From: Coleofasciculus chthonoplastes F2-STO-03
GTDB lineage: Bacteria; Cyanobacteriota; Cyanobacteriia; Cyanobacteriales; Coleofasciculaceae
Reading direction: 5' to 3'
DNA: 64,000 nt
Assembly: GCA_040222015.1 (NCBI GenBank)
Contig: JAVJWO010000071.1
Span: 14,497-78,496 of the forward strand
Position numbers and translations under genes: made by a program. Shown here one piece after another: positions 8,482-23,446 of the stretch. The stretch's first letter is position 1; each line of letters opens with the position of its first letter. Below the pieces are notes generated by a model, which ran no database searches, had not been told where the DNA came from, and worked only from the letters and a program-made list of their open reading frames with translations.

Positions 8482-9948
8482 ATGAGTCATCCCGCTCCAT
8501 CAGAGTCTTCAGTTCCACCAAAACCAGCCCAACCGGAAAAACTTAATCTTGCCACGAAAATGGCTTACGGGGCGGGTGATATGGGGGCGGGGATTACAGC
8601 TACCCTGTTGGCGTTCTCCTTACTAATTTTCCTCACCAATGTAGCTGGATTAAGTCCAGGGTTAGCCAGTACGGTGCTGTTAATCGGCAAAATCTGGGAT
8701 GCGATTAATGATCCCATTGTTGGAGTATTAAGCGATCGCACTCGGTTCCGTTGGGGGCGACGCCATACCTGGATGATCCTATCCGGTATTCCCTTTGGCG
8801 TGTTCTTTTTCTTGCAATGGGTTGTACCCCCTATCAATCAGTCGGCGTTGTTTTGGTATTACGTGATTGTCAGTATTTTATTCAATATGGCGTTTACAGG
8901 CGTCAATTTGCCCTATACCGCATTGACGCCAGAACTGACTCAAGATTACAACGAACGTACCAGCTTGAATAGTTTTCGCTTTGCTTTCTCCATTGGCGGG
9001 AGTATTCTATCCCTAGCCCTGGGTCAATTTATCTTCCGAGTTATTCCTAATGATCAAGAAAAATATCTAGTCTTGGGACTCATCTGTACAGTTCTATCTG
9101 TTCTACCCGCCTATTTGTGCGTGTGGGGAACCACAGATCCAACGGCGGCGGGGGAACGGCGTTCACATGAAACGGTGGAGGAGAGTAATGAAACGGAAAT
9201 CCCTTTTTTAGAACAGCTAAAAATTGCCTTTAGCAATCGCCCTTTTCTCTATGTAATTGGGATTTATCTGTTTTCCTGGTTAGCCTTTCAGTTAACAGCG
9301 GCGATTATTCCCTATTATTTGGTTAACTGGATGGGTCAAGAGTCCTATTTTACCGCCGCCTTAGTGGTTCAATCTGTAGCATTATTGATGCTGTTTGTCT
9401 GGAATTGGGTCAGTCAGCGCGTCGGTAAACGGGCAGTTTATTTTATGGGAATGAGTGTCTGGATTGTCGGTCAAGGCGGACTATTCTTTTTACCACGGGA
9501 TCAGGTTGGTTTAATGTATCTCCTCTTTGTCATGGCAGGGTTTGGTATTGCTATTGCCTATCTCATCCCTTGGTCAATGTTACCCGATGTGATTGAATTG
9601 GATGAACTGAATACGGGTCAACGGCGCGAGGGAATTTTCTATTCGTTTATGGTACTCCTGCAAAAGATAGGATTAGCCTTGGGATTGTTTCTCGTGGGAC
9701 AAGCGCTGGATTTGGCGGGGTTTTTGACTAGTGAACCGGGTCAACCGATACCCGAACAACCGGCTTCAGCGCTGCTGGCGATTCGGTTAGTTGTTGGTCC
9801 ATTGCCTACCGTGTTCTTACTTTGTGGATTAATTTTGGCATATTTCTATCCCATCACTCGCGAAATTCATGCAGAAATTCTGTTACAGCTTCAGGAACGC
9901 AAGTCGGGTACTGATACTTCTGCTGACGAAGGTTCGGAATTTGAGTGA
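8482..9948 (+). CDS. GPH/MelB-family MFS transporter
   Basis: WDAINDPIVG..SDRT..WGRR, RREGIFY, many TM helices. Confidence 0.9.
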   Translation: MSHPAPSESSVPPKPAQPEKLNLATKMAYGAGDMGAGITATLLAFSLLIFLTNVAGLSPGLASTVLLIGKIWDAINDPIVGVLSDRTRFRWGRRHTWMILSGIPFGVFFFLQWVVPPINQSALFWYYVIVSILFNMAFTGVNLPYTALTPELTQDYNERTSLNSFRFAFSIGGSILSLALGQFIFRVIPNDQEKYLVLGLICTVLSVLPAYLCVWGTTDPTAAGERRSHETVEESNETEIPFLEQLKIAFSNRPFLYVIGIYLFSWLAFQLTAAIIPYYLVNWMGQESYFTAALVVQSVALLMLFVWNWVSQRVGKRAVYFMGMSVWIVGQGGLFFLPRDQVGLMYLLFVMAGFGIAIAYLIPWSMLPDVIELDELNTGQRREGIFYSFMVLLQKIGLALGLFLVGQALDLAGFLTSEPGQPIPEQPASALLAIRLVVGPLPTVFLLCGLILAYFYPITREIHAEILLQLQERKSGTDTSADEGSEFE

Positions 9949-11818
9949 CGCTGCGACTAAAATTGGTAACCGTTATAAACTGCAAAACGCTTTAACCCAA
10001 CCCAGAGAAATAGGGTTAACCTTTCATATTTTATTTTGGTTCAGTTTAAGCTTAATCATCACCGCAATTTACAGTGGGTTAGCACTGCGAGAAGCATTTA
10101 GTCATCCCTATATCGTTCAAGATGATGCCCGTCAGCATATTTTTTGGATGCAACGGTTCATTGATGGCGGATTATTTCCCCATGACTTAATTGCCGATTA
10201 TTTCCAATCCGTTGCCCCTGTGGGATACAGTACGATTTACCGCATCGCCGCCGCTGTAGGTATCCATCCCTTTCTCTTCAACAAACTCTTACCGCCAATT
10301 CTCGGCGCGATCGCGACAGGGTACTGTTTTTGCATATCCCTACAACTCCTACCCGTACCTGCGGCTGGCTTTATCACCACAGTACTACTCAATCAAAGTC
10401 TTTGGATGAAAGATGATCTAATCTCAGCCACCCCCAGAGCCTTTGTTTACCCCCTATTCCTCGCCTTCTTATACTACTTACTACGCCAATCTCTACTACC
10501 TTGCCTAACCACAATCATCCTATTATCTCTATTCTATCCCCAATACCTATTAATTTGTGCCGCCCTATTCACCCTGCAACTCCTCACCAAAAAAAACTCA
10601 CTTATACGAACCTCTGCGCCCCTCCGCGCTTACCTCTGCGCCCCTCTGCGTTTCCAAAAAACCGTCAATCTACACCCCCATTCCCTATCCACAATCGGTC
10701 TAATCATAGCCCTAATCGCCATTTCCGCCTACGCCCTCATTCCCGGAAAATTCGATCCAGTCATCACCGCCACTCAAGCCAAACAATTACCAGAATTTTG
10801 GGGAAATGGGCGCAGTTATTTTTTCAGTAATAACCCCTGGTATTTCTTTTTTCTCAGTCCCCGCAGTGGTATATTAGACGTAGGCTTCGTTAGACCTGCA
10901 ACTTTAAGTTTAGGCATACTATTACCCATTCTATACCGACATCCCAACTCATTTCCCCTAGTTAAATCTATTTCCCCTCAGATCCGAGTATTAGCTCAAG
11001 TTTTTTGTGCCTCTCTATTAATATTCATCACTGCCCATCTGCTACTATTTAACCTGCATCTTCCCAGTCGTTATACAGAACATAGCTTTCGTATTCTTTT
11101 ATCCGTATCAGCCGGGATGGTTTTAACAATCACGCTGGATGCTATTTTGAGAACAGATTGCCATCCCGCAAAACTCAAAAAATTCTACCTTGGTCGAGGC
11201 AGGTTTAGTGACAGCAGGGCGAAAAGAAACAATAATGGAGAAACCCGCCCCTACTCAAAACTCAGAATTTACCACTACCTAACCATTAGCTTCATCACAG
11301 TAGCATTACTTTTCTATCCCTACTTAGTGAAACCCTTTCCGTTAACCAAATACAAAGACGGTCATTTTCCTGCTTTGTATCAATTCTTTCAACAGCAACC
11401 GAAAGATAGTTTAATTGCCTCGGTATCAGAAGAGGCAGATAATCTACCCACCTTTGCCCAACGATCTATTTTAGTCGGGCGGGAATATGCGATTCCTTAT
11501 CATTGGGGGTATTATCGTCAATTTCGCCAACGCACAATTGACTTAATTAAAGCCCAGTACAGTGCTGATTTAGAGGAGGTGAAACAGTTTATCCAACTTT
11601 ATGGAGTAGATTTTTGGCTATTAGACAATACTGCCTTCACGCCAGAGTATCTAGCCAATCATGATTGGCTGCGAGACTATCAACCTGTCACGTTAGAGGC
11701 GCAAAAGAGGCTAACTCAGGGAATCACTCCAGCATTAGCTGGGATAGTTGAGGATTGTTCGGTGTTTCAGATGGAGAGATTTGTCGTGTTAAAAACCACT
11801 TGTATAAATCAATTGTAG
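9941..11818 (+). CDS. Multi-TM membrane protein, possibly a GT-C-type glycosyltransferase; start uncertain
   Basis: Long hydrophobic ORF with VQDDARQH loop motif; two in-frame repeat insertions. Confidence 0.65.
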   Translation: MSDAATKIGNRYKLQNALTQPREIGLTFHILFWFSLSLIITAIYSGLALREAFSHPYIVQDDARQHIFWMQRFIDGGLFPHDLIADYFQSVAPVGYSTIYRIAAAVGIHPFLFNKLLPPILGAIATGYCFCISLQLLPVPAAGFITTVLLNQSLWMKDDLISATPRAFVYPLFLAFLYYLLRQSLLPCLTTIILLSLFYPQYLLICAALFTLQLLTKKNSLIRTSAPLRAYLCAPLRFQKTVNLHPHSLSTIGLIIALIAISAYALIPGKFDPVITATQAKQLPEFWGNGRSYFFSNNPWYFFFLSPRSGILDVGFVRPATLSLGILLPILYRHPNSFPLVKSISPQIRVLAQVFCASLLIFITAHLLLFNLHLPSRYTEHSFRILLSVSAGMVLTITLDAILRTDCHPAKLKKFYLGRGRFSDSRAKRNNNGETRPYSKLRIYHYLTISFITVALLFYPYLVKPFPLTKYKDGHFPALYQFFQQQPKDSLIASVSEEADNLPTFAQRSILVGREYAIPYHWGYYRQFRQRTIDLIKAQYSADLEEVKQFIQLYGVDFWLLDNTAFTPEYLANHDWLRDYQPVTLEAQKRLTQGITPALAGIVEDCSVFQMERFVVLKTTCINQL

Positions 11819-12017
11819 GGGCGGGTTTTACTGCTATCTTTTCGGTTGCACCCAAATGCGACTAAACCCGCCCTTGCTCAGGAAAGGGCGACTCCCAGAC
11901 GCGCCAAGGCGCGTCTCTACATTGCTCCCAGACGCGCCATGGCACGTCTCTACATTGCTCCCTGCAGCAGACCCTAGACTAAGGCAGGCATAGTTTTATG
12001 ATCATCAATGCCTTCCC

Positions 12018-13418
12018 TCAGCGCCCGATTTCCACCTCTTCAAGGATGCCCAGTGCGTCAGGGACAAGCACGGCTACAGAATAGTAAACGCTGAGCAGAT
12101 AAGACATAATCGCCTTTTCGTTGATACCCATGAACCGAACAGACAGGCTGGGTTGGTATTCGTCGGGGATACCCGTTTGGTGTAAACCAACCACACCTTC
12201 ATTCTCCTCACCGATGCGGAGTGCCAGGATAGAGCTAGTACCAGTTTTCGTAATCGGAATCTTGTTGCAGGGAAAGATGGGAACGCTGCGCCAACCGAAG
12301 ATCATCTGCCCGTTTACCTCAACACTCTGGGGATAAATGCCACGGTGGTTACATTCCCGACCAAAGGCAGCAATGGTGCGGGGGTGAGCCAGGAAGAACT
12401 TCGTCTTCTTCCGCAGAGAGAGGAGTTCATCCAGATCATTTGGGGCAGGTGGACCGGTGCGGGTAAAAATGCGCTCCTTGAGATCCGCATTGTGCAATAA
12501 CCCGAATTCGCGGTTATTAATCACTTCGTATTCCTGCCGTTCCCGCAACGCCTCAATCGTCAGCCGTAACTGTTGCTCAACCTGATTTATGGGTTCATTG
12601 TACAGGTCAGCCACTCGTGTGTTGACCCGCAAAATGCTTTGAGCCACACTCAACTCATACTCGCGCGGTGTTAAGTCGTAATCCACAAACGTCCCTGGCA
12701 GCTCGGTTTCCGCCGGATGTCCCGCTGACATAGCGATCGCGGCTTGACCGTGTTTGTCCTGGGGCTGTCTCAACCGGGCTCTAAATTGATCGACCTGAGC
12801 CTGGAGCGCCTCAGACTGGTTGAGTAACTGCCGAAATGCCTGAATCGGCAGGGATAATACTGTACAACTCGTTACCGCCCGTAGAGTGACCTTCCAACTC
12901 TCCTGGGACTCAACCATACCTTGGTCGCCAAAATGGTCACCGTCGGCGAGTACATCTCGTAAAGCGTCTTCCTCATATTTTCCCGGTGTCATCTTGTTGA
13001 CTTTACCGTGAACAATGAGTAACACTTGATCGGCGGGTTGACCCGCTTGGACAATCACCTCACCTGCGGCAAACTCTTGTTGCACAAATCGGTCAGCTAA
13101 GGTATTTAACACCTCAACATCGTCAAACCCGCGCAGTAAGGGTAGCTCACATAGGGATTCGGGAATCACCCGCACTTCGGTTCCCGTATTAGTAAAGCTG
13201 ACTCGTCCATCCCCGACGGTATAGCGCAACCGACGGTTCACCCGATAAGTACCCCCCTTGATCTGCACCCAGGGCAACATCTTTAACAGCCACCGTGGGG
13301 TGATGCCTTGCATCTGCGGCACGGTTTTGGTCGTGGTTGCCAAATTCCGGGCGGCGGCTGTGTTCAAACTCATCTGCGGCTGTTCACTCTCAACCTGCAA
13401 ATTGGCGGCATCTGTCAT
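12018..13418 (-). CDS. Family 2B encapsulin shell protein with cNMP-binding domain (cnbB/geoB-like)
   Basis: [33 protein letters not shown] insertion, [27 protein letters not shown] before ATG 13418. Confidence 0.92.
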
Positions 13419-13872
13419 AAAAACTCCTTCGCTGTGGGAAACCCTGTGTCTAAAGACCAGGGAGGAACACGCGGTAGCGGTTTTAACCGCATACTTTTTT
13501 AGGGGGTGGAGGGGTATGGTTGCCCCTCCAATTGTCTCCCATTTCTGGGGTAAAGTTAGCCTCGCCAATGTTATCAGTCGGTAACTATCCAAAAAGCACT
13601 GTTTCAGTGACCTTAAAACTGTTTAACTTTTTGGTTCTAGAGCAGTAGACTGGCTATCGCATCTACTGGTAGGTCTTTAACACTTGCCGATAACGTAGTG
13701 CGCTTAGCACTTAGGCTGGTAAGCACAGCTTTAACTTACTTGGCTAAAGCTCCGTGTCCCTTCGCTTCGCTCGAGGGCAAGCTTTAGACCGGGGTTGCTT
13801 ACAACTTAATACTCCATACTGCTCGTAACTCACAAAAAGACCTAAGACCAAAGAAGGGCGGGTTGAATGTAG

Positions 13873-14228
13873 GGGCGGGTTTTACTACTATCATTGGCGG
13901 GTTGCACCCAGATATGAATAAACCCGCCCCGACTTGCTCCTTAATTAGTAGTAGGGTGGGCACTGCCCACCAGGGGTGTCAACTTAAGCCACAACCCTTG
14001 CCCCTTCTAATTTTCAGCGATGGGGTTCCTGCTCCCTCGGCTGATAGCGATCGCCACCGGAAAAGGGCGGGTTTAGTCAAGTTATCAGTTGTTGCCATAA
14101 GTTATCTGTAAAACCCGCCCCTACATTCCCTACATCCCCTGCTCTCCTGAAGGGCGGGTTTTACTACTATCATTGGCGGGTTGCACCCAGATATGAATAA
14201 ACCCGCCCCGACTTGTTCCTTAATTAGT
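13873..14228. repeat. 77-bp direct repeat (13873-13949 / 14152-14228) within a REP-like cluster
   Basis: Identical except for one base; both are GGGCGGGTTT..AAACCCGCCC hairpins. Confidence 0.9.
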
Positions 14229-14257: not shown

Positions 14258-15667
14258 CTAACGACCGACTTCGACATCTTCAAGGATGCCCAGGGCGTCG
14301 GGGACGAGGACGGCGGTGGAGTAGTAGGCACTGATTAGGTAGGAGATGATCGCCTTTTCGTTGATGCCCATGAACCGGACAGACAGACTGGGTTGGTATT
14401 CGTCGGGGATACCGGTTTTGTGGAGACCGATGACACCTTGGTTAGCTTCTCCCACACGCATCAACATGAAGGAGCTAGTCCGGGTATTGGAGATGGGAAT
14501 CTTGTTGCTGGGAAAGATGGGGATGCCACGCCAAGCGGGTACTGAGCTGTTGCCCATGGGGACAGTGTTGGGATAGAGTCCCATACGGTTGCACTCCCGA
14601 CCAAAGGCTGCGATCGCGCGGGGGTGGGCGAGGAAAAAGCTCGGCTCTTTCCAGACAATGGAGATTAGTTCATCCAGATCATCTGGGGTGGGTGGACCAC
14701 TACGGGTAAAGATGCGCTGTTTCAGGTCTGCATTGTGCAGCAACCCAAAGTCGCGGTTATTAATCAGTTCATGTTCCTGCTGTTCCCGCAATGTCTCAAT
14801 CGTCAGCCGCAATTGCTGCTCAGTCTGATTCATCGGTTCGTTGTACAAGTCAGACACTCGCGAGTTGACCCGCAACACCGTTTGAGCCAAGCTCAACTCA
14901 TACTCACGGGGAGCGGCTTCATAATCTACGAAGGTTCCAGGCAATGGGGTTTCACTCTGATGTCCTGCAGATAAATCGATCAAGGCTTCCCCTTCGGCGC
15001 TCTGGGGTTTGCTCAGGCTAGCGCGGTATTGATCAACCTGAACCTGCAAGGTTTCAGATTGGCTAACCAACTGCCGAAACGCCTCTTCCGGTAGTGACAA
15101 AACAATACAGCGAGTAACGGCTTGTAGGCTAACGTCCCAGGTATCTTCCGACTGCACAACGGCTTGATCCCCAAAATGGTCGCCGTCAGCCAGCACCCCT
15201 AAGACGACTTCATCACCATATTTTCCAGATCCAATCACGTTCACTTTACCATGGGCAATCAGGATGACCTGGTCTGCCGATTGACCCGCCTGAATGATCA
15301 CATCACCGGCGGCAAATTCTTGCTGCACAAATCGGTCTGCCAAAGCTGTCAACACATCGTCATCGTCGAACCCCCGCAGCAACGGCAGTTCACACAGTTC
15401 TTGGGGAATCACGCGGATATCAGCCCCAACGTTGGTGAAGGTAACGCGCCCATCGCCAACGGTATAGGTAAACCGACGGTTCACCCGATAGGCACCACCG
15501 ACGACTTGTATCCAGGGCAGCATTTTCAACAACCACCGTGACGAAATGCCCTGCATCTGGGGCTTGGTTTTGGTGGTGGTTGCCAAATTCCGGGCAGCGG
15601 CTGTGTTTAAGCTCAACTGCGGTTGATTATTTTGATTGTCTACGGGCGTATTCGCTGCATCTGTCAT
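14258..15667 (-). CDS. Family 2B encapsulin shell protein with cNMP-binding domain (cnbA-like)
   Basis: Paralog of 12018-13418 with the same shell and CBD motifs. Confidence 0.92.
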
Positions 15668-15798
15668 GATGATTTCCTTTGGTTAATGTTAGTTAATGTT
15701 TGTTAACAAAGACATCCTTGGAAGTACGAGCTTGGTTACCAAGCCCCTACGGTTCCGGCTTCATCCTGGTGGTGACGACACCTTCCGCTCTACAGAAC

Positions 15799-16977
15799 TT
15801 AGACAATCTTGGACATACCTAGATTGAGGTCTGCTTCCTGCTTCATCGACTCCCACTGCCCACAGGCTGTAACGAGCGAGTCTCCACAAGCTACCACCGT
15901 CGAGCTGACGGCAGGGGTATAGTGTTCCAGATTGACCAAGGCGTTGAAATCTTGGTCTTTTTTCATACCACAGCACGAACAAGAAAATGTGCGAATGTGC
16001 AATGGCATCTGCTGTTGGTGGGAGTATTCAGAACACAACTGACTGAATGGATAGAATCGAGAAGCTACAATTACTTCGGCTCCGTACCAGGAGGCTTTGT
16101 ACAGCAATTGGCGTTTGAATTCGTAGCATCCACAATCGGCTATGGCTGAGGCTAACCGATGGTTTTTGTGCCTCCCAGAACCATGCAAATCCTCAATCAC
16201 AATGGTGCTGTGGTTCTTAGCTAACCATGTCGTGAGTTTATGCAAGGCATCGGCGCGAACGTTAGCGACTCGCCGATGTTGTTTAGCCAGTCGGTTGCTC
16301 GCTTTTTGACGGTTGGATGAGCCTTTTACCTTTCGGCTCAGGGTACGTTGCAGGCGAACTAACCGACCCTTGGCTTTTTGATAGGCTTTGACGTTCTCTA
16401 CCTCGGTTCCATCGGAACAGGTGGAGAGTCGATTAATTCCTACATCTACGCCGATTCTATCACGAATTTTCGCTGTGGTTTGGATATCTTTTTCGTAGCT
16501 GAAACTGATGTACCAATCCTGAGCCAGTTTACTTATAGTGACATTTTTTACAGTAACACTTGGCGGTATTTCATGACAAGTTACCCAGCCAATTTGAGGT
16601 AAGTTGATCCGATTTCCACTAATTTTGATCCTGCCTTCTAAGTAGAAGCTGTCCTTGTTTCCCTTCTTTTTGAATTTGGGTTTCTGGGATACCTTTGACA
16701 CCAACCATCGCTGGAATGCCGTGGCTAGATGTCGCAGCGCTTGTTGAGGGCTACAGGGGGAAACCTCATCGTACCAAGGGTTTACAGATTTCACCTCGGC
16801 GACTAAACGCTGATGGAGGTCAATCGCCGTTGGCAGTTTTTCTTTATTGTCTAACGCTGTAAGACATAAAGAAAGTCCCCAGTTCCAAGCATGACGTGCT
16901 GTGCCTGCGTGTTTAGCTAACAAGGTTGCCTGCTTGTTATTAAGCTTGAGTTTGGTTTTAAAGCTTACTTGCGGCAT
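15799..16977 (-). CDS. tnpB: TnpB RNA-guided nuclease, probably decaying
   Basis: N-terminal HTH, GVDVG / IEDL / DQDFN RuvC motifs; first Zn-finger pair degenerate (CSEY). Confidence 0.88.
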   Translation of the reverse strand: MPQVSFKTKLKLNNKQATLLAKHAGTARHAWNWGLSLCLTALDNKEKLPTAIDLHQRLVAEVKSVNPWYDEVSPCSPQQALRHLATAFQRWLVSKVSQKPKFKKKGNKDSFYLEGRIKISGNRINLPQIGWVTCHEIPPSVTVKNVTISKLAQDWYISFSYEKDIQTTAKIRDRIGVDVGINRLSTCSDGTEVENVKAYQKAKGRLVRLQRTLSRKVKGSSNRQKASNRLAKQHRRVANVRADALHKLTTWLAKNHSTIVIEDLHGSGRHKNHRLASAIADCGCYEFKRQLLYKASWYGAEVIVASRFYPFSQLCSEYSHQQQMPLHIRTFSCSCCGMKKDQDFNALVNLEHYTPAVSSTVVACGDSLVTACGQWESMKQEADLNLGMSKIV

Positions 16978-17113
16978 CTTTCCATGGCTCTACTATTTGC
17001 TTGTTTTTCTGTGACCGAGACTCATAGAATCTGGCAGAAAATACAGTAATTATCTCGAAAATATCTGATTGGTCTGAGCTAGATACTCGCGCATAACCGA
17101 TGGTTTTTCTGCT
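16958..17113 (-). pseudogene. tnpA: IS607 TnpA serine recombinase remnant
   Basis: Reads RKTIGYARVSSSDQ joined to DIFEIITVFSARFYESRSQKNKQIVEPWKDAASKL*; HTH and central region missing. Confidence 0.8.
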
Positions 17114-17269
17114 TGTCGAATTTTGTAGAACATTGTCTAATTAAAGCCCTTCATTTTTACCCCCTGTATCTAAACCCGTAATTTCGCCAAATTAGCTTTT
17201 GGTTCCTTAGGACTTACGCTTTTTTGACGGCACAGGCGCTACCTGTAGGGGCTCTTCTTTGCCGTGCCC

Positions 17270-19951
17270 CTACCATAAATGGCGTTTGTGCGTAAGTCCT
17301 GTTCCTAACAATGAGCTAATCTGCATCACTGACGTGCCTAATCCCACCGGAAGACTGGGTAAAGTCTCCGCCACTGGCTCCGCCTCGGTTTCTGGCTCGG
17401 GAGTATCCGCTAAACTGGCTGCAATCTGCATCGCTGACGTGCCTAATCCCACCGGAAGACTAGGTAAAGTTTCTGCCTCTGGCTCCGCTTCGGTTTCTGG
17501 CTGGGGAGTCTCCGCTAAACTGGCGGCAATCTGCATCGCTGACGTGCCTAACCCTGTGGGAAGACTAGGTAAACTCTCCGCCACTGGCTCCGCTTCGGTT
17601 TCTGGCTGGGGAGTCTCGGCTAAGCTGGCGGCAATCTGCATCGCTGATGTACCTAACCCTGTCGGACTATTCAGGAAATTATGCACTATCGGCTGAGCAT
17701 CGGGTTCAGTTTTTGGCTCACCGACTGAACTCGAGCTAAGCCGGGTAGCCGAAGTACCTAGCCCCGTTAGCGCACCAAACGGTTGTCCTTTAACTGCAGA
17801 GAGACCTTGCGGCGCGGTGTTGATATAGCGGTTCGAGTTATAGTGCCACTCGTAGCAGCCAGCTATCCAGACCTGCAACCCATCAATGTAGTCATACACT
17901 TGCTTACGGGCATCGGCATCTAGTCCCAGTTCTTCCAGCAAAGCGGGTATTTCAGTGTCCACGATGTACTCAAACTGCTTCAGGCGAGCTGTGATCAGTC
18001 GCACAAGCGTGTTCACTGTCTCCTGCACATCAACGCCGAGGAATCGCTGCGCTACCACCACGGCGTGGTTGATTTCCCTTTCATACTCAACTCTCCGTGG
18101 ATAGGCTACCACATCGTTGTGCGTGTTAGTCACATCCCCAAACGCCTTGTCCAGTGCAACCATCTGTGGTCCTAAGTAGATCTCTGATGGACGTTCAATG
18201 TCAATAGCAAATATGACAAGGATAATGGAGATACGAGTGAACGCTGTACTTAACCTCATCTCAATGTAATCCACCGGATCAGCCGTTCGGTTTAAGGTTA
18301 AGTTGGTGATCTCCCAGATATGGCTGTCAATGTAGTCCTGCACAGAGACCGCTAGATCATGCTGCATCTCTGTAGACATGGCGCTGGTGGATCGCTCCCA
18401 CAGATCAGCCAAAGACCACTCCACTTGGTTGGTTGGGATCAACGTTACAGAGTGATCTATCGGCATGAACTCCTTTAGCCGGGACAGGAAGATCTTGGCA
18501 CCAAACAGATCCCGACGGCGCTTGAACACCTCCAAGAAATAGTCTTTCATGTACCACCCCCAGACGTGCCAGTCATTGATCAGCTCTAGCTTAGGCAGCG
18601 ATGCATCAGGGGTGGTCAGGGCTGTGAACAAGGCGAATTCGGCGGAATCCCACTTGTCTTCATTCCAATTTCCCCACTTGCCGCGCAGATCCGGGAGCGA
18701 CCCCAAGAACCCCATTTCCCTTGCCCATTCTTTAGCATGTTTGCGTACTGCGTCCACGAGTGGACTCATGCGAACAGAGAACGGCATGTAGAACTCGGGT
18801 AGATCAAACGGCTCTGGTTCAAGGGGGACAGACATGAAGCTTCGTAGCCGCAGCCCTATCATCGAGGGCGATAAGCCAATACGCGCCGCCGCCGTACCTA
18901 AGCCTTTAGGTCCTCCAAGTGGCGACTCTGTCTTGGATTCAGCGGGTAGGTATCGACCTCCAGGTCGGATCTCCCACTCCAGATCTCCAGCCATCCAATC
19001 CCGGAGCGCCTTCACATAAGACATTACTCGCTGACGGGCTGCACCATCCACTATGTACTCATTCAACATTGGTTCAAGTTCCACAGTCATGGTGTACTCG
19101 AACTGGTTCAGTCGCGAGTTGACAATATCATTGACGAAGTTCACAGCTTTCTGTAAATCAGTTTCCAGAAAGTGTTCCGTCACCACTACACAGTTATTGA
19201 CCTTGCCTTCGTCGATGTCCTTCTGGTAGGAAATGATGTCGTTGCGTAGACCGACGCTATCCGCGTAGGACTCATTGAGTACCTGGATCGGTCGCGTGTC
19301 ATAGATCTCTGGTGGGATCTCAACCGTTAGGGAGTGTTCGACCAAGTCTGCCGACCAAAACACCCCGCCTATCTGACGGCGCAGCGTGATGTATTCGACT
19401 GGATCGAGTATCCGTTCCTGGTTATTGCCCGTGTTGAACAGTTCTCGTAGGTTGGCTTCTGCCATGACTCGGATGTGTTCAACAAACCGCTGTCGCCACT
19501 GCACTGACATAGTTGGCGCGGTACGAGGCCACAGATCCGCTAGGGCGTATTCAGTCGGGTTCTGGGACTCCGGTATAGGAGTGGCTAGATCGGTCGGCAT
19601 AAAAGACAGCAGTCGAGTCAGATACGCCTTCGCCTCTTTTATATCTGAACTTCCACCCTCGAATGCTCGCGGAAAGTAGTCATCGACAAACCACCCCCAA
19701 ACATACCAATCGCTGAGTAAGTCCAACTCCAATGCGGGTGCATCTGGGTGAGTGGCGGCAGCAAAGCCGGCGAAATCCATCGCATCAAAGGTTTCTTCAT
19801 CCCATACAGCATCCTCATCCGATTCCAGGATGCCCATCCGATACGCCCACTCCTTGCAGTGTATGCGTGCCCCCTGTACATTGGGGTTCACACGCGCGGG
19901 CCAAGGCATGTAAAAATCAGGTAATTTAAAGGGTGGCTGGCTTGATGTCAT
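17270..19951 (-). CDS. Divergent two-domain class I terpene cyclase (geosmin synthase GeoA-like) with C-terminal repeat tail
   Basis: PFKLPDFYMPWPAR start, two cyclase domains, GGPKGLGTAAARI linker; motifs DDYFP/NDIISYQKD and KDYFLE/NDVVAYPRR; start ATG 19951 preferred. Confidence 0.88.
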   Translation of the reverse strand: MTSSQPPFKLPDFYMPWPARVNPNVQGARIHCKEWAYRMGILESDEDAVWDEETFDAMDFAGFAAATHPDAPALELDLLSDWYVWGWFVDDYFPRAFEGGSSDIKEAKAYLTRLLSFMPTDLATPIPESQNPTEYALADLWPRTAPTMSVQWRQRFVEHIRVMAEANLRELFNTGNNQERILDPVEYITLRRQIGGVFWSADLVEHSLTVEIPPEIYDTRPIQVLNESYADSVGLRNDIISYQKDIDEGKVNNCVVVTEHFLETDLQKAVNFVNDIVNSRLNQFEYTMTVELEPMLNEYIVDGAARQRVMSYVKALRDWMAGDLEWEIRPGGRYLPAESKTESPLGGPKGLGTAAARIGLSPSMIGLRLRSFMSVPLEPEPFDLPEFYMPFSVRMSPLVDAVRKHAKEWAREMGFLGSLPDLRGKWGNWNEDKWDSAEFALFTALTTPDASLPKLELINDWHVWGWYMKDYFLEVFKRRRDLFGAKIFLSRLKEFMPIDHSVTLIPTNQVEWSLADLWERSTSAMSTEMQHDLAVSVQDYIDSHIWEITNLTLNRTADPVDYIEMRLSTAFTRISIILVIFAIDIERPSEIYLGPQMVALDKAFGDVTNTHNDVVAYPRRVEYEREINHAVVVAQRFLGVDVQETVNTLVRLITARLKQFEYIVDTEIPALLEELGLDADARKQVYDYIDGLQVWIAGCYEWHYNSNRYINTAPQGLSAVKGQPFGALTGLGTSATRLSSSSVGEPKTEPDAQPIVHNFLNSPTGLGTSAMQIAASLAETPQPETEAEPVAESLPSLPTGLGTSAMQIAASLAETPQPETEAEPEAETLPSLPVGLGTSAMQIAASLADTPEPETEAEPVAETLPSLPVGLGTSVMQISSLLGTGLTHKRHLW
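17318..17665 (-). repeat. 105-bp tandem repeat (~3.3 copies) encoding 35-aa P(T/V)GLGTSAMQI units
   Basis: AATCTGCATC recurs at 17318, 17423, 17528 and 17633. Confidence 0.95.
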
Positions 19952-20516
19952 TGTTCGCTTAAACTTAATTTCAGAAAATTGTCTAGTCTTAGGTCTGGGT
20001 GGAAGTCCGATCAATTGGATAGCCATGATAAACTCGGATATAAGATAGTCGTCTTATACCTTGTCTTCACTAATTCACAACAAACCTGCCGAAACTGCCG
20101 ATTAGCACGGTTTCAATTGGTTCACAGCTAGTTAGGCTGGCTTGACTCAAGTAGGCAGTTTTAAAGTAACACTGATTCTTTAAATAAATGATTATGGCAT
20201 CGCCCAGTACAACCTTACTAAAGCCCCTCTAATGGCTGATAATGACCATAAAAAACCACCTACTTTTTATCTCATTAGCCAGAGTATCTCAAATCATTGA
20301 GTCTAATTTTTTTTGTCATAAAACTTAACAGGTTGGGCAACGTGGTTCAGCCGTGGCGTTTTGACGTTAAAACATGGTTAATTTTCTCCAAGCCCATTGC
20401 CCTTTTGTGATTAATTGAACAGACCCTGGGGGAACAGGTAAAGGTTTGGTAACTAAACCCCTACTCGGATACAATGAAGGGCTGTAGAGAAAACGGTTTC
20501 AGGAGAAAAAACGTAA

Positions 20517-21285: not shown

Positions 21286-21526
21286 AATTGTAGGGGCGGG
21301 TTTAGCCATAATTGTAGGAGCGGGTTTAGCCATAATTGTAGGGGCGGGTTTAGGGAATCAATTCAGCTAGTCACCGATAAATTAACAACAAAACCCGCCC
21401 TGACTAACGTTAAATTAACAACGAAACCCGCCCTCCCCACCAATAAATGAACTAACTCAATTGATCGGGGCGGGTTTAGTCAAATCTAGGTCACAAAGAG
21501 AGGATAGTCGTGAAACCCGCCCCTAC
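21286..21526. repeat. REP-like cluster including three tandem 24-bp units
   Basis: AATTGTAGGGGCGGGTTTAGCCAT x3 and several AAACCCGCCC arms. Confidence 0.85.
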
Positions 21527-21576
21527 ACACTCAAAATGTTCCCAATCACCTGTTCACCAATCACCCAATTAAAACC

Positions 21577-22516: not shown

Positions 22517-23446
22517 CTAATACGTCCGTGAGGTAATGAAATCAGCCAGAGCAATTAAAGGTTGAGAACGCTCACCAAACGGTTCCAGTTGGGCAATAGC
22601 CTCTTCAATCAACTCTTGAGCTTTAGCTTTAGAAGCCTCAAGTCCCCAGAGGCTAGGATAGGTTGCTTTCTGCGCTTGCAAATCTTTCCCCGCCGTTTTG
22701 CCTAATTCCTCCTGAGTTGCGGTGATGTCCAGGATATCATCAATAATTTGAAACGCTAAGCCAATATTTTGAGCATAGCGAGACAGGCGTTCTATATCCG
22801 CATCGGTTGCACCTGCTAAAATTCCACCACAGACAACACAGCTTTCCAGCAACGCTCCGGTTTTATGGGTATGAATGTAATGAAGGGTTTCCGCTTGAAT
22901 ATCAGATTTTCCCTCACATTCCAAGTCAACCACCTGACCCCCAACCAATCCAGCCGCGCTCAACGTCCAACCTAGACGAGCAATCACTCGCAACACCCGC
23001 TCGGCAGGAACTCCCTGAGTTTGGGTGGCGACATATTCAAACGAATAGGCTAGCAAACCGTCACCCGCCAGAATCGCCATATCCTCACCGTAGACCTTAT
23101 GATTGGTGAGTTTACCCCGACGGTAGTCGTCGTTATCCATGGCAGGGAGATCATCATGAATTAACGACATCGTGTGGAGCATTTCCAAAGCGCAGGCGGT
23201 TGGCATTGCCATCTCAATCGTGCCACCCATCAGTTCACAGGTTGCCAGACAAAGAATCGGGCGCAACCGTTTCCCCCCCGCTAAGAGAGAATAGCGCATT
23301 GCCTCATAAATCTTTTCCGGATAACCTAGGGGTAAAGAACGGTCTAAAGCTGCCTCCACTTGAGCTTTCCGCTCTTTTAGATAGGTCGATAAATCAAAAG
23401 CTGGGGATTCCCCATTCGGGGCAGGTCGCCCATCTGTTGCTACCAT
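22517..23446 (-). CDS. crtE: Geranylgeranyl diphosphate synthase
   Basis: [26 protein letters not shown]. Confidence 0.93.

What the first reader, a model, noticed from the sequence alone, without database searches (positions are those of the whole stretch)
17700..19951. GeoA-like cyclase with rewired active sites: probably a non-geosmin terpene made inside an encapsulin
Seen: domain 1 has WGWFVDDYFP (DDYFP at 19670-19684), NDIISYQKD (19217-19243) and WMAGDLEWEIRPGGRY. Domain 2 has KDYFLE (18530-18547), NDVVAYPRR (18092-18118) and EMRLST. Known: canonical GeoA has WVFFFDDHFLE / NDLFSYQRE / WHMRSSRY in domain 1 and DDY(F/Y)P / ND(I/V)FSYQKE in domain 2. Here domain 1 carries domain-2-style motifs with remodelled pocket residues, and domain 2 has lost the first Asp plus the NSE Ser and Glu. 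Inference: one active cyclase of altered specificity fused to an inactive scaffold domain, still linked to shell genes. That would be a geosmin-type operon repurposed for another product.
Basis: partly seen in the sequence, partly recalled or inferred. Interest (0 to 1): 0.85.

Follow-up and report, generated by a model that had tools for sequence, protein, structure and literature searches.

The report
Mosaic geosmin-synthase-like encapsulin cargo cyclase
This cyanobacterial gene encodes a two-domain relative of geosmin synthase that is tagged for packing into a protein shell, belongs to an uncharacterised sister group of the true geosmin enzymes, and has had its second domain replaced wholesale by one from a distant lineage, so it probably makes some terpene other than geosmin.

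Summary
In detail: every motif sits at the stated coordinates. The gene is longer than flagged (17270-19951, minus strand). It ends in a disordered tail with five more copies of the published shell-loading peptide (GLGTS...), six in all.

Domain 1 is not a one-off rewiring. Its WGWFVDDYFP / NDIISYQKD / RPGGRY signature defines a conserved sister clade of canonical GeoA domain 1 (33 of 115 aligned homologs, in cyanobacteria and actinomycetes). That clade is under strong purifying selection (omega 0.08-0.17).

Domain 2 did not decay in place. Two same-genus genomes share about 90% nucleotide identity across the whole operon, except for 1,174 bp (17667-18840) with no detectable similarity. That cassette groups with a separate 'KDYFLE' domain-2 lineage: 66% identity to one unnamed protein, about 50% to Egibacteraceae MAG proteins. 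Both crossovers lie at loading-peptide linkers. Contigs from independent public runs bridge both junctions, so this is not an assembly chimera.

A TnpB element is inserted between the cyclase and the two Family 2B shell genes. The genome has no canonical GeoA.

Best reading: domain 1 is an active, encapsulated cyclase with an unknown, non-geosmin product, and domain 2 is a non-canonical, fast-evolving structural module. This is a new variant of a known kind.

The parts
17270..19951 (-). GeoA-like two-domain terpene cyclase gene. The ORF is open up to 20026 (918 aa), but the likely start is M26 at 19951, giving 893 aa.
   Evidence: Relatives start at MTSSQ. pLDDT is below 50 for residues 1-26.
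18932..19939 (-). Domain 1 (aa 30-365): class I cyclase domain of the 'DDYFP' sister clade of GeoA domain 1. It carries DDYFP (19670-19684), sensor RR (19376-19381), NDIISYQKD (19217-19243) and RY (18950-18955).
   Evidence: PDB 5dw7/5dz2 (ScGeoA N-domain) aligns at E 1e-87. 88% identical to G007/G001/P0002 domain 1. Clade support is 0.997 in FastTree and 98-99* in IQ-TREE. pLDDT is above 90.
18881..18913 (-). Interdomain cargo-loading peptide CLP1 (GPKGLGTAAAR, aa 372-382). The 5' crossover of the domain swap lies here, between K374 and S388.
   Evidence: The motif matches the published GP(N/T)GLGTSAAR (PMC13739066 section 2.5). pLDDT is below 50 at aa 367-384. Informative residues come from the three-way alignment.
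17667..18840 (-). Swapped cassette (aa 396-786): foreign domain 2 plus its own C-terminal CLP and a spacer. It has no nucleotide similarity to same-genus operons that are otherwise about 90% identical.
   Evidence: blastn HSPs end at 18841 and resume at 17666. D2 is 35% identical to relatives' D2 but 66% to P0005 D2. AU test p = 0.0007. Independent contigs bridge both junctions.
17792..18814 (-). Domain 2 (aa 405-745): alpha-helical cyclase fold of the 'KDYFLE-KRRRD' lineage. It carries KDYFLE (18530-18547) and NDVVAYPRR (18092-18118). The first Asp and the NSE Ser and Glu are lost; the sensor Arg (EMR) and RY are kept.
   Evidence: PF19086 scores 113.8 bits. The clade has 100* support. Alignment A2 shows the invariant K-D-x-F-L-E-x-x-K-R-R-R-D-L. 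pLDDT is mostly above 90. Evolution is accelerated.
17741..17773 (-). Imported CLP2 (ALTGLGTSATR, aa 752-762), which came in with the foreign domain 2.
   Evidence: It aligns with the CLP2 of P0005 and P0018.
17270..17668 (-). Resident C-terminal tail (aa 787-918): four 35-aa tandem repeats, each carrying P(T/V)GLGTS(A/V)MQI(A/S)(A/S)(S/L)L. GLGT starts at aa 790, 825, 860 and 895.
   Evidence: TRF finds period 105 bp x 3.2 copies at 90% match. 90% nucleotide identity to the G007 tail. pLDDT is below 50. Copy number varies among close relatives.
15703..17173 (-). IS200/IS605-type TnpB-only insertion (tnpB ORF 15799-16977) between the cyclase and shell gene 1. It is absent from both same-genus operons.
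   Evidence: Pfam OrfB_IS605 / Cas12f1-like_TNB and NCBIfam guided_TnpB at 267 bits. There is a synteny gap. The element is single copy in the genome.
14258..15667 (-). Family 2B encapsulin shell protein 1 (469 aa) with an inserted cNMP-binding domain.
   Evidence: NF041163 770 bits against cutoff 400; PF19307 plus PF00027. 96% identical to the G007/G001 orthologs.
12018..13421 (-). Family 2B encapsulin shell protein 2. The ORF is open to 13592, but the likely start is M58 at 13421. It is 71% identical to shell protein 1.
   Evidence: NF041163 776 bits, with the profile starting at residue 75 of the long ORF. 93-94% identical to the G007/G001 orthologs.
22517..23446 (-). Context only: CrtE geranylgeranyl-diphosphate synthase, 2.5 kb upstream on the same strand. 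It is syntenic in the genus and is a possible source of FPP or GGPP.
   Evidence: NF045685 570.7 bits against cutoff 460. Synteny shown.

Best explanation
[quoted passage not shown] It belongs to a conserved, uncharacterised sister clade of geosmin synthase, called here the 'DDYFP clade'.

Domain 1 is the working class I terpene cyclase. It keeps the Asp-rich motif, the N-S-D metal triad, the diphosphate-sensor Arg and the RY pair. It differs from GeoA at 15 clade-fixed positions clustered on those motifs. I infer that it ionises a prenyl diphosphate, most likely FPP, to a product other than the GeoA product profile.

Domain 2 cannot do the Mg-dependent germacradienol-to-geosmin step, because the first Asp and the NSE Ser and Glu are gone. 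I infer that no geosmin is made.

Domain 2 is a foreign cassette. Recombination at the conserved loading-peptide linkers replaced the resident, already degenerate, domain 2 with one from the KDYFLE lineage. That domain now evolves about 2.5 times faster than its nearest relative but is still predicted to fold well. I infer that it is retained as a structural module that spaces or stabilises the protein.

Loading into the shell is through six GLGT loading peptides: one in the linker, one imported with domain 2, and four in resident tail repeats.

Shown: the motifs, clade membership, the mosaic structure, its presence in independent samples, selection on the clade, and the loading-peptide match to a tested motif. 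Inferred: catalytic activity of domain 1, the substrate, the non-geosmin product, inactivity of domain 2, and actual encapsulation.
For: Motifs and coordinates are confirmed.

Domain 1: it aligns to the ScGeoA N-domain at E 1e-87. 33 of 115 aligned homologs share WGW[FY]VDDY..., NDIISYQ.D and RPGGRY, and 15 positions are fixed differently from 75 canonical sequences while 89 are fixed the same. The D1 clade is supported at 0.997 (FastTree) and 98* (IQ-TREE). For D1, omega is 0.08-0.17 in 25 pairs with dS above 0.2, and 0.23 for the window vs L014.

Mosaic: the operon is about 90% identical at nucleotide level to G007 and G001 on both sides of 17667-18840, with no HSP inside. D1 is 88% and the tail 79% identical to G007, shell proteins 1 and 2 are 96% and 93% identical, but D2 is only 35%. 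D2 is 66% identical to P0005 D2 and 47-53% to Egibacteraceae-type D2. The KDYFLE clade has 100* support. Holding the window's D2 together with 11 native D2 domains costs 112.6 lnL, AU p = 0.0007.

Not an assembly artefact: contigs X1 record 6 and X4 record 16 bridge the 5' junction, and X2 record 9 bridges the 3' junction, at 93-97% identity.

Fast D2: Tajima's relative-rate test finds 50-58 changes unique to the window vs 19-23 unique to P0005, p <= 0.001 with each of 5 outgroups. D1 shows no asymmetry.

Fold: both domains are mostly at pLDDT above 90, while the linker (367-384) and tail (738-918) are below 50.

Loading peptide: PMC13739066 section 2.5 (read in full) shows that GP(N/T)GLGTSAAR in the linker and C-terminus mediates MxGeoA loading.

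Shells: NF041163 scores 770 and 776 bits against cutoff 400.

No other GeoA or PF19086 domain is found in the 99.99%-complete genome.

Literature: PMC5009524 (passages read) reports a cyanobacterial GeoA homolog with under 49% similarity that lacks Mg motifs and sits next to two cNMP-domain genes, in a culture with no detectable geosmin.
Against: No biochemical data exist for any member of the DDYFP clade, so 'active' and 'non-geosmin' rest on motif logic. The third NSE ligand of D1 is Asp rather than Glu, and its Asp-rich motif lacks a third acidic residue, so D1 chemistry could also be impaired.

The requirement of the D2 metal motifs for geosmin formation is recalled from the ScGeoA mutagenesis literature. 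I did not read it here.

D2 keeps the sensor Arg and RY pair. It also has a lineage-invariant K-D-x-F-L-E..KRRRD block, which argues for some retained function beyond scaffolding.

The TnpB insertion may uncouple the cyclase from its shell genes. The promoter and terminator scan was uninformative: 0 promoter-like sites and no terminator-like site on the minus strand.

The AU-test group was chosen after I had seen a first tree.

The RNA-library contigs do not prove transcription (caveat stated).

The Hapalosiphon homolog was not shown here to belong to this clade. The only supplement that could show its motifs is a picture-only PDF.
Confidence: 0.68

Rival explanations
1. It is still a germacradienol/geosmin synthase. 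Domain 1 makes germacradienol despite its altered motifs, and domain 2 completes the protonation and fragmentation step with non-canonical residues.
For: The overall two-domain architecture, the loading peptides and the two-shell operon match those of geosmin systems. D1 is 51% identical to canonical D1, and 89 fixed positions are shared. D2 keeps the sensor Arg and RY. Public annotation names several clade members 'germacradienol/geosmin synthase'.
Against: It scores below the curated family cut-off (888 vs 1200 bits). D2 lacks the first Asp and the NSE Ser and Glu. Two unrelated D2 types, each degenerate in a different way, serve the same D1 within one genus, which is hard to reconcile with a conserved second catalytic step. 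D2 is evolving fast. A similar homolog was reported in a culture without geosmin (PMC5009524, passages read).
Confidence: 0.08
2. The whole protein is a catalytically dead relic or pseudo-enzyme, and the operon is decaying: the TnpB insertion, the domain replacement and the repeat expansion are all neutral events.
For: A TnpB element splits the cyclase from the shell genes. A related group (P0018, 26, 27, 29, 32; Egibacteraceae type) has both domains degenerate yet sits in encapsulin operons. The window's D2 departs at 29 positions where the other six clade members agree. PMC5009524 (passages read) called its homolog inactive.
Against: D1 has all catalytic motifs and is under strong purifying selection in the clade (omega 0.08-0.17; 0.23 for the window vs L014). 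There are no stops or frameshifts in 893 codons. Both domains are confidently folded. Shell proteins 1 and 2 are 96% and 93% identical to their G007 orthologs. The mosaic allele persists at 93-97% identity in four independent runs, two of them RNA libraries.
Confidence: 0.12
3. Domain 2 of the KDYFLE lineage is catalytically active in a new way: a Lys/Arg cluster replaces the Mg3-diphosphate unit. The swap would then have changed the final product rather than exchanging one scaffold for another.
For: K-D-x-F-L-E-x-x-K-R-R-R-D-L is invariant across all five rows of alignment A2, which represent the KDYFLE lineage, and mean column identity there is 68%. The fold is intact. The cassette was fixed and persists in environmental populations.
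Against: Much of the KRRRD block (RD..GAK) is also present in canonical domains (consensus), so it is only partly lineage-specific. The window's copy evolves 2.5 times faster than P0005. The NSE positions vary freely within the lineage (ND / GD / YN / VD).
Confidence: 0.1
4. The mosaic is an assembly chimera of two organisms' cyclase genes.
For: The genome is a 219-contig draft. The cassette has no counterpart in same-genus genomes.
Against: Both flanks are collinear with the relatives on one contig. Contigs from other public runs bridge each junction with 100 or more bases on both sides (X1 record 6, X4 record 16, X2 record 9). The reading frame is continuous. GC and GC3 of the cassette (0.516 / 0.60) match the flanks.
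Confidence: 0.01

Closest known systems
[quoted passage not shown]
   Same: The cargo is a two-domain class I cyclase followed by two cNMP-domain Family 2B shell genes. The GLGT(S/A)A loading peptide sits in the interdomain linker and at the C-terminus, in disordered segments.
   Different: Here the D1 motifs are DDYFP / NDIISYQKD / RPGGRY rather than DDHFLE / NDLFSYQRE / SSRY. D2 lacks the metal ligands and is a swapped-in foreign cassette. There are six loading peptides instead of two. A TnpB element lies between the cargo and shell genes. The product is unknown.
Streptomyces coelicolor germacradienol/geosmin synthase (PDB 5dw7 / 5dz2, N-terminal domain)
   Same: D1 aligns over its full length at E 1e-87. 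The fold is the same, and the sensor Arg, RY pair and NSE positions are shared.
   Different: 15 clade-fixed substitutions sit at or beside the catalytic motifs: V111G, F112W, H117Y, F265I, E270D, H349L, an extra P355, S356G, S357G and others. The D2 chemistry is not conserved.
Canonical cyanobacterial geoA-cnb-cnb operons (for example the Nostoc-type proteins P0053, P0058, P0065 named 'family 2 encapsulin nanocompartment cargo protein terpene cyclase')
   Same: Same operon plan and phylum. The shell proteins are 68-77% identical.
   Different: The cyclase is only 45% identical. Canonical genes score above 1200 bits on NF041168 in 16 of 401 sampled cyanobacterial genomes, whereas this gene scores 888. 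No sampled genome carries both types.
GeoA homolog AMR41_20665 of Hapalosiphon sp. MRB220 (PMC5009524; passages read)
   Same: It is reported as under 49% similar to producers' GeoA, lacking Mg-binding motifs, followed by two cNMP-domain genes, in a culture with no geosmin detected.
   Different: Its authors concluded that the enzyme is inactive. Its clade membership was not verified here, and no mosaic or tail repeats were described.

Membership tests
Germacradienol/geosmin synthase GeoA (NCBIfam NF041168, f2_encap_cargo3) | Whole-protein score at or above the curated cut-off of 1200 bits | tested here: not met
   887.6 bits and 888.4 bits. Canonical cyanobacterial genes score 1218-1265 bits.
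Germacradienol/geosmin synthase GeoA | Two tandem class I terpene cyclase domains (alpha-alpha architecture) | tested here: met
   PF19086 matches twice. Both domains are all-alpha with pLDDT above 90.
Germacradienol/geosmin synthase GeoA | N-domain motifs DDHFLE and NDLFSYQRE | tested here: not met
   This protein has DDYFPR and NDIISYQKD. 75 of 115 aligned homologs carry the canonical form.
Germacradienol/geosmin synthase GeoA | C-domain metal-binding motifs DDY(F/Y)P and ND(I/V)FSYQKE | tested here: not met
   This protein has KDYFLE and NDVVAYPRR. D2 falls outside the canonical D2 clade.
Germacradienol/geosmin synthase GeoA | Converts FPP to germacradienol and geosmin | not testable with these tools
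   This needs an enzyme assay or headspace GC-MS.
Family 2B encapsulin cargo protein | Loading peptide of the tested type GP(N/T)GLGTSAAR in disordered segments | tested here: met
   GLGT occurs at aa 375, 755, 790, 825, 860 and 895. These segments have pLDDT below 50. The motif is taken from PMC13739066 section 2.5.
Family 2B encapsulin cargo protein | Encoded next to Family 2B shell gene(s) | tested here: met
   Two shell genes lie 1.6 kb and 3.8 kb downstream on the same strand. They are directly adjacent in relatives without the TnpB element.
Family 2B encapsulin cargo protein | Physically packaged inside the shell | not testable with these tools
   This needs co-expression and co-purification or cryo-EM. 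No complex prediction was run.
Family 2B encapsulin shell protein (NF041163) | Score above the cut-off, plus an SrpI-like HK97 domain with an inserted cNMP-binding domain | tested here: met
   770 and 775.7 bits against cutoff 400. PF19307 and PF00027 are found in both proteins.
Class I terpene cyclase, catalytically competent domain | Asp-rich motif, NSE/DTE triad, diphosphate-sensor Arg and RY pair | tested here: inconclusive
   D1 has DD (with no third acidic residue), N-S-D (Asp where Glu is usual), RR216-217 and R358-Y359, so all elements are present in variant form. D2 has only the sensor Arg and RY.

The most novel reading that the evidence does not exclude
The short, conserved loading-peptide linkers of encapsulin cargo enzymes may act as natural recombination joints. 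Through them, whole cyclase domains are exchanged between lineages, here a cyanobacterial domain 1 with a domain 2 whose known relatives are mostly actinobacterial. The KDYFLE-KRRRD domain 2 would be a new, metal-independent functional module, catalytic or regulatory, rather than dead weight. The encapsulated enzyme would then make a terpene not yet described.
Probability: 0.15. Interest if true: 0.75.

Novelty: new variant of a known kind. Interest (0 to 1): 0.55.

Why it matters
Geosmin synthase genes are used as markers for earthy off-flavour in water, and public annotation calls several members of this clade 'germacradienol/geosmin synthase'. If the clade makes something else, those calls and geoA-based monitoring overcount producers.

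The clade also offers product-discovery targets. It is a conserved, encapsulated, uncharacterised cyclase group present in cyanobacteria and actinomycetes.

The clean domain-cassette swap shows that nature exchanges whole cyclase domains at the loading-peptide linkers. The varying number of loading-peptide repeats (1 to 6 GLGT motifs among near-identical proteins) may tune how the cargo is loaded. Both observations are directly usable for engineering encapsulin cargo.

Tried and rejected
- **Donor search.** A metagenome scan with the cassette protein found no relative. A second scan with the D2-lineage alignment gave at best 50% identity. A region-restricted search of 5.8 billion protein clusters found nothing closer than P0005 (61% by BLASTP). 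The genome-collection scan did not return the P0005 contig. The donor therefore remains unidentified.
- **GC test for recent foreign origin.** The cassette has GC 0.516 and GC3 0.60. D1 has 0.528 and 0.57, and the shell genes 0.53 and 0.58-0.60. There is no contrast, so the test is uninformative.
- **dN/dS on the window's own D2.** This was not possible. No DNA is held for P0005, and the other relatives, at about 50% amino-acid identity, are too divergent for a usable dS. I used a relative-rate test instead.
- **Literature.** Searches for encapsulin plus geosmin synthase, for the DDYFP motif, for paralogs, for GeoA-like or geosmin-synthase-homolog wording, for two-domain or inactive-domain wording, and for Family 2B terpene cyclase cargo found no paper that describes this clade, its product or a domain swap. 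Churro et al. 2020 (PMC7251104, passages read) define a 'Cyano II' group that keeps DDHFLE, so it is not this clade. The Hapalosiphon supplement that should show its motifs is a picture-only PDF and could not be searched.
- **Promoter and terminator scan of the TnpB region.** It found 0 promoter-like sites and 1 terminator-like site, on the plus strand only. This is uninformative.
- **Reads.** Parts of the stretch without contig cover in the four runs (for example 18077-18500 in X1) say nothing. No run holds half or more of the sampled words.
- **Earlier scan notes.** There are none at this place and none by sequence.
- **Not run.** No complex prediction and no fold search were run.
Full report
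**Observation.** Window 17270-20026 on the minus strand is one open frame of 918 aa.
- DDYFP at aa 115-119 (19670-19684)
- NDIISYQKD at aa 262-270 (19217-19243)
- KDYFLE at aa 494-499 (18530-18547)
- NDVVAYPRR at aa 637-645 (18092-18118)

Pfam finds two Terpene_syn_C_2 stretches. NCBIfam's GeoA-type encapsulin cargo model NF041168 matches end to end, but at 888 bits against a cut-off of 1200. Domain 1 aligns over its full length to the crystallised N-terminal domain of S. coelicolor geosmin synthase, 5dw7/5dz2, at E 1e-87.

Downstream on the same strand lie three genes. The first is a TnpB gene (15799-16977). The other two are Family 2B encapsulin shell genes (14258-15667; 12018-13421 with the likely start at M58). 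The shell proteins score 770 and 776 bits against a cut-off of 400, and each has an inserted cNMP-binding domain.

Two corrections to the flagged interval. The gene runs to 17270, not 17700. Its likely start is M26 (19951), because relatives begin MTSSQ and residues 1-26 are modelled at pLDDT below 50.

**Domain 1 belongs to a clade.** A search of 5.8 billion protein clusters returned 672 hits; the best 120 were examined. Five of them are four-domain proteins of about 1,540 aa. Of the other 115, aligned:
- 75 carry the canonical W-V-F-[FY]-F-D-D-H-F-L-E, NDLFSYQRE and SSRY.
- 33 carry W-G-W-[FY]-x-D-D-Y, NDIISYQxD and RPGGRY.
- 7 are otherwise degenerate.

The 33 come from cyanobacteria (Coleofasciculus, Gloeotrichia, Nostochopsis, Nostoc calcicola, Limnofasciculus and Microcoleus, by source names) and from Kitasatospora and Streptomyces. 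Their domain 1 forms a sister clade of canonical domain 1, supported at 0.997 in FastTree (242 domains) and 98-99* in IQ-TREE LG+C20 (56 domains).

Fifteen positions are fixed differently in the two groups: L88F, V111G, F112W, H117Y, W194R, N208D, F265I, E270D, L302V, Q345M, H349L, an extra P355, S356G, S357G and N361P. Eighty-nine positions are fixed identically. The differences cluster on the Asp-rich, NSE and RY elements.

Among eight cyanobacterial clade genes, domain 1 has omega 0.08-0.17 in the 25 pairs with dS above 0.2. The three near-identical pairs are uninformative.

So the 'rewiring' is real, but it is an old, selected family trait. The resemblance to canonical domain-2 motifs holds only at motif level: the window's D1 is 51% identical to canonical D1 and 41% to canonical D2.

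**Domain 2 is a swapped cassette.** Forty relatives' genomes were searched together with the window's own, 41 in all. Two of the eight other genomes of the same genus (G007, G001) carry the operon. At nucleotide level:
- The window is collinear with both from folD through crtE, DUF212 and pdxJ into the cyclase (24498-18841, 86-91% identity).
- It then has no HSP at all for 1,174 bp (18840-17667).
- Identity resumes in the tail repeats (17666-17303, 90%).
- The window skips 15703-17173, the TnpB insertion, which is absent from both relatives.
- Collinearity continues through shell gene 1 (92.8%) and shell gene 2 (90%).

At protein level, identity to G007 is 88% for D1, 79% for the tail, 96% for shell 1 and 93% for shell 2, but only 35% for D2.

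The window's D2 is instead 66% identical to the D2 of P0005, an unnamed NCBI protein. It is 47-53% identical to the D2 of a group found in Egibacteraceae MAGs and GC-rich metagenome contigs. In the IQ-TREE analysis it sits in that 'KDYFLE' clade (100*) as sister of P0005 (91), while its D1 is sister of P0002 D1 (98*). Forcing the window's D2 together with the 11 native D2 domains costs 112.6 log-likelihood units (AU p = 0.0007). The caveat is that this group was chosen after a first tree had been seen.

In the three-way alignment, the 5' crossover falls inside the linker loading peptide, between K374 and S388. The 3' crossover falls between the imported CLP2 (aa 755) and the first resident tail repeat (aa 787).

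**Not an assembly artefact.** Contigs of four other public runs were laid on 16900-20100.
- 5' junction: bridged by X1 record 6 (18567-19138, 32 differences) and X4 record 16 (18735-19004, 8 differences).
- 3' junction: bridged by X2 record 9 (17484-17915, 28 differences).

The mosaic allele therefore exists, 3-7% diverged, in independent samples. X1 and X2 are RNA-labelled libraries, which is only a weak hint of transcription. No run holds half of the sampled words.

**State of domain 2.**
- The resident D2 of relatives is itself degenerate: WGFYIDGVF, sensor Arg replaced (TSGKT) and RY changed to YY. It is nevertheless under purifying selection, with omega 0.24-0.44.
- The imported D2 has K in place of the first Asp, and A and R in place of the NSE Ser and Glu. 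It keeps the sensor Arg and RY.
- Its lineage shares an invariant K-D-x-F-L-E-x-x-K-R-R-R-D-L block (alignment A2). Part of that block (RD..GAK) also occurs in canonical domains.
- Since its split from P0005, the window's D2 has accumulated 50-58 unique changes against 19-23 in P0005 (p <= 0.001 with each of five outgroups).
- The window's D2 also departs at 29 positions where the other six clade members agree; the other members depart at 3-14. Domain 1 shows no such asymmetry.
- AlphaFold2, run with a 50-sequence alignment, models both domains as all-alpha at pLDDT mostly above 90, with pTM 0.77.

**Loading peptides.** Fazal et al. 2026 (PMC13739066; sections 2.1-2.3 and 2.5 read) showed that M. 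xanthus GeoA is loaded into a two-component Family 2B shell. [quoted passage not shown]

The window protein has GLGT at aa 375 (linker), 755 (imported with D2) and 790, 825, 860 and 895. The last four lie in 35-aa tandem repeats of 105 bp (TRF x 3.2 copies). All of these sit in segments with pLDDT below 50.

Among 75 canonical proteins, 51 have two GLGT motifs. Among the 14 members of the cluster at 90% identity or more around P0002, the count runs from 1 to 5, and lengths step by about 35 aa. The window's protein has 6.

**Genome context.**
- The 99.99%-complete genome holds no other NF041168 match and no other PF19086 domain.
- In an even sample of 401 cyanobacterial genomes, 20 have a match. 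Sixteen are over the cut-off (canonical), two are full-length but under it (G196 at 1021 bits; this genome at 888), and two are fragments. None has two matches.
- The upstream polyprenyl synthase is the CrtE equivalog (570.7 bits against cut-off 460). It is syntenic in the genus, so it is probably housekeeping.

**Interpretation.** The evidence best fits an encapsulated class I cyclase whose domain 1 is the catalyst, with a product that differs from GeoA's. Domain 2 does not perform the geosmin-forming step. It is kept as a folded module that can be exchanged. The need for the D2 metal motifs in geosmin formation is recalled from ScGeoA mutagenesis work and was not read here.

A published cyanobacterial case may be the same kind of gene. 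In Hapalosiphon MRB220, a GeoA homolog with under 49% similarity lacks Mg motifs, sits next to two cNMP-domain genes, and the culture showed no geosmin (PMC5009524, passages read). Its clade membership could not be checked.

Rival readings are scored in their own section: still a geosmin synthase, a dead relic, a catalytically novel domain 2, and an assembly chimera. The chimera reading is refuted.

**Novelty.** Family 2B shells with GeoA-like cargo and the GLGT loading peptide are published. Earlier notes of this scan on other genomes also record them as known. Four things were not found in six literature searches:
- the DDYFP clade as a distinct entity
- the domain-2 cassette replacement at the loading-peptide linkers
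- the expansion and copy-number variation of the loading-peptide repeats
- repeated mobile-element insertion between cargo and shell genes

This is a new variant of a known kind. Interest is moderate. It would rise if a product is identified.

Noticed in passing
P0003, P0004, P0006, P0007, P0008 (1529-1583 aa); L032 1019-5962, L040 5292-10163, L041 2270-7123, L042 1868-6721: Four-domain GeoA-like cyclases, effectively two GeoA units fused, of about 1,530-1,650 aa. They occur in Nannocystis-type and GC-rich metagenome contigs, and those with context sit next to Family 2B encapsulin genes. The third domain groups with canonical domain 1.
   Followed up: partly
L012 1416-3686, L013 579-2843, L028, L029 6897-9152, L031 6888-9152 (P0018, 26, 27, 29, 32): Egibacteraceae-type proteins of about 750 aa in which both cyclase domains have lost their metal motifs (EDSS / K-D-x-x-S; KDYFLE / GD, YN or VD). 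Each is nevertheless the only cyclase in the fetched stretch of a shell-cyclase-shell operon and keeps its GLGT loading peptides. These look like encapsulated pseudo-enzymes or unknown chemistry.
   Followed up: partly
L015 4034-4954 (G001); also L046: In the same-genus genome G001, the cyclase lacks the tail repeats (741 aa) and a 306-aa RRXRR-domain protein gene (PF14239, E 5e-44) sits between the cyclase and shell gene 1. Together with the TnpB element in the window, this makes the cargo-shell intergenic spot a repeated target for mobile elements.
   Followed up: partly
window 17174-17302: About 95 bp that the G007 operon lacks lie at the 3' end of the cyclase gene. They change the last residues (GTGLTHKRHLW instead of GPKS) and contain the stop codon. 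Contigs of runs X1 and X3 diverge from the window at 17255-17303.
   Followed up: no
window 21335-21529, 14152-14213, 13868-13934, 11814-11873: A short repeat of about 60-70 bp recurs in the intergenic spaces of this region, and in the relatives' loci at several places (blastn). It is probably a small dispersed cyanobacterial repeat.
   Followed up: no
window 9869-11818 (+): A 649-aa multi-pass membrane protein with no NCBIfam match lies just beyond shell gene 2. It is syntenic in G007 and G001 at 90% nucleotide identity.
   Followed up: no
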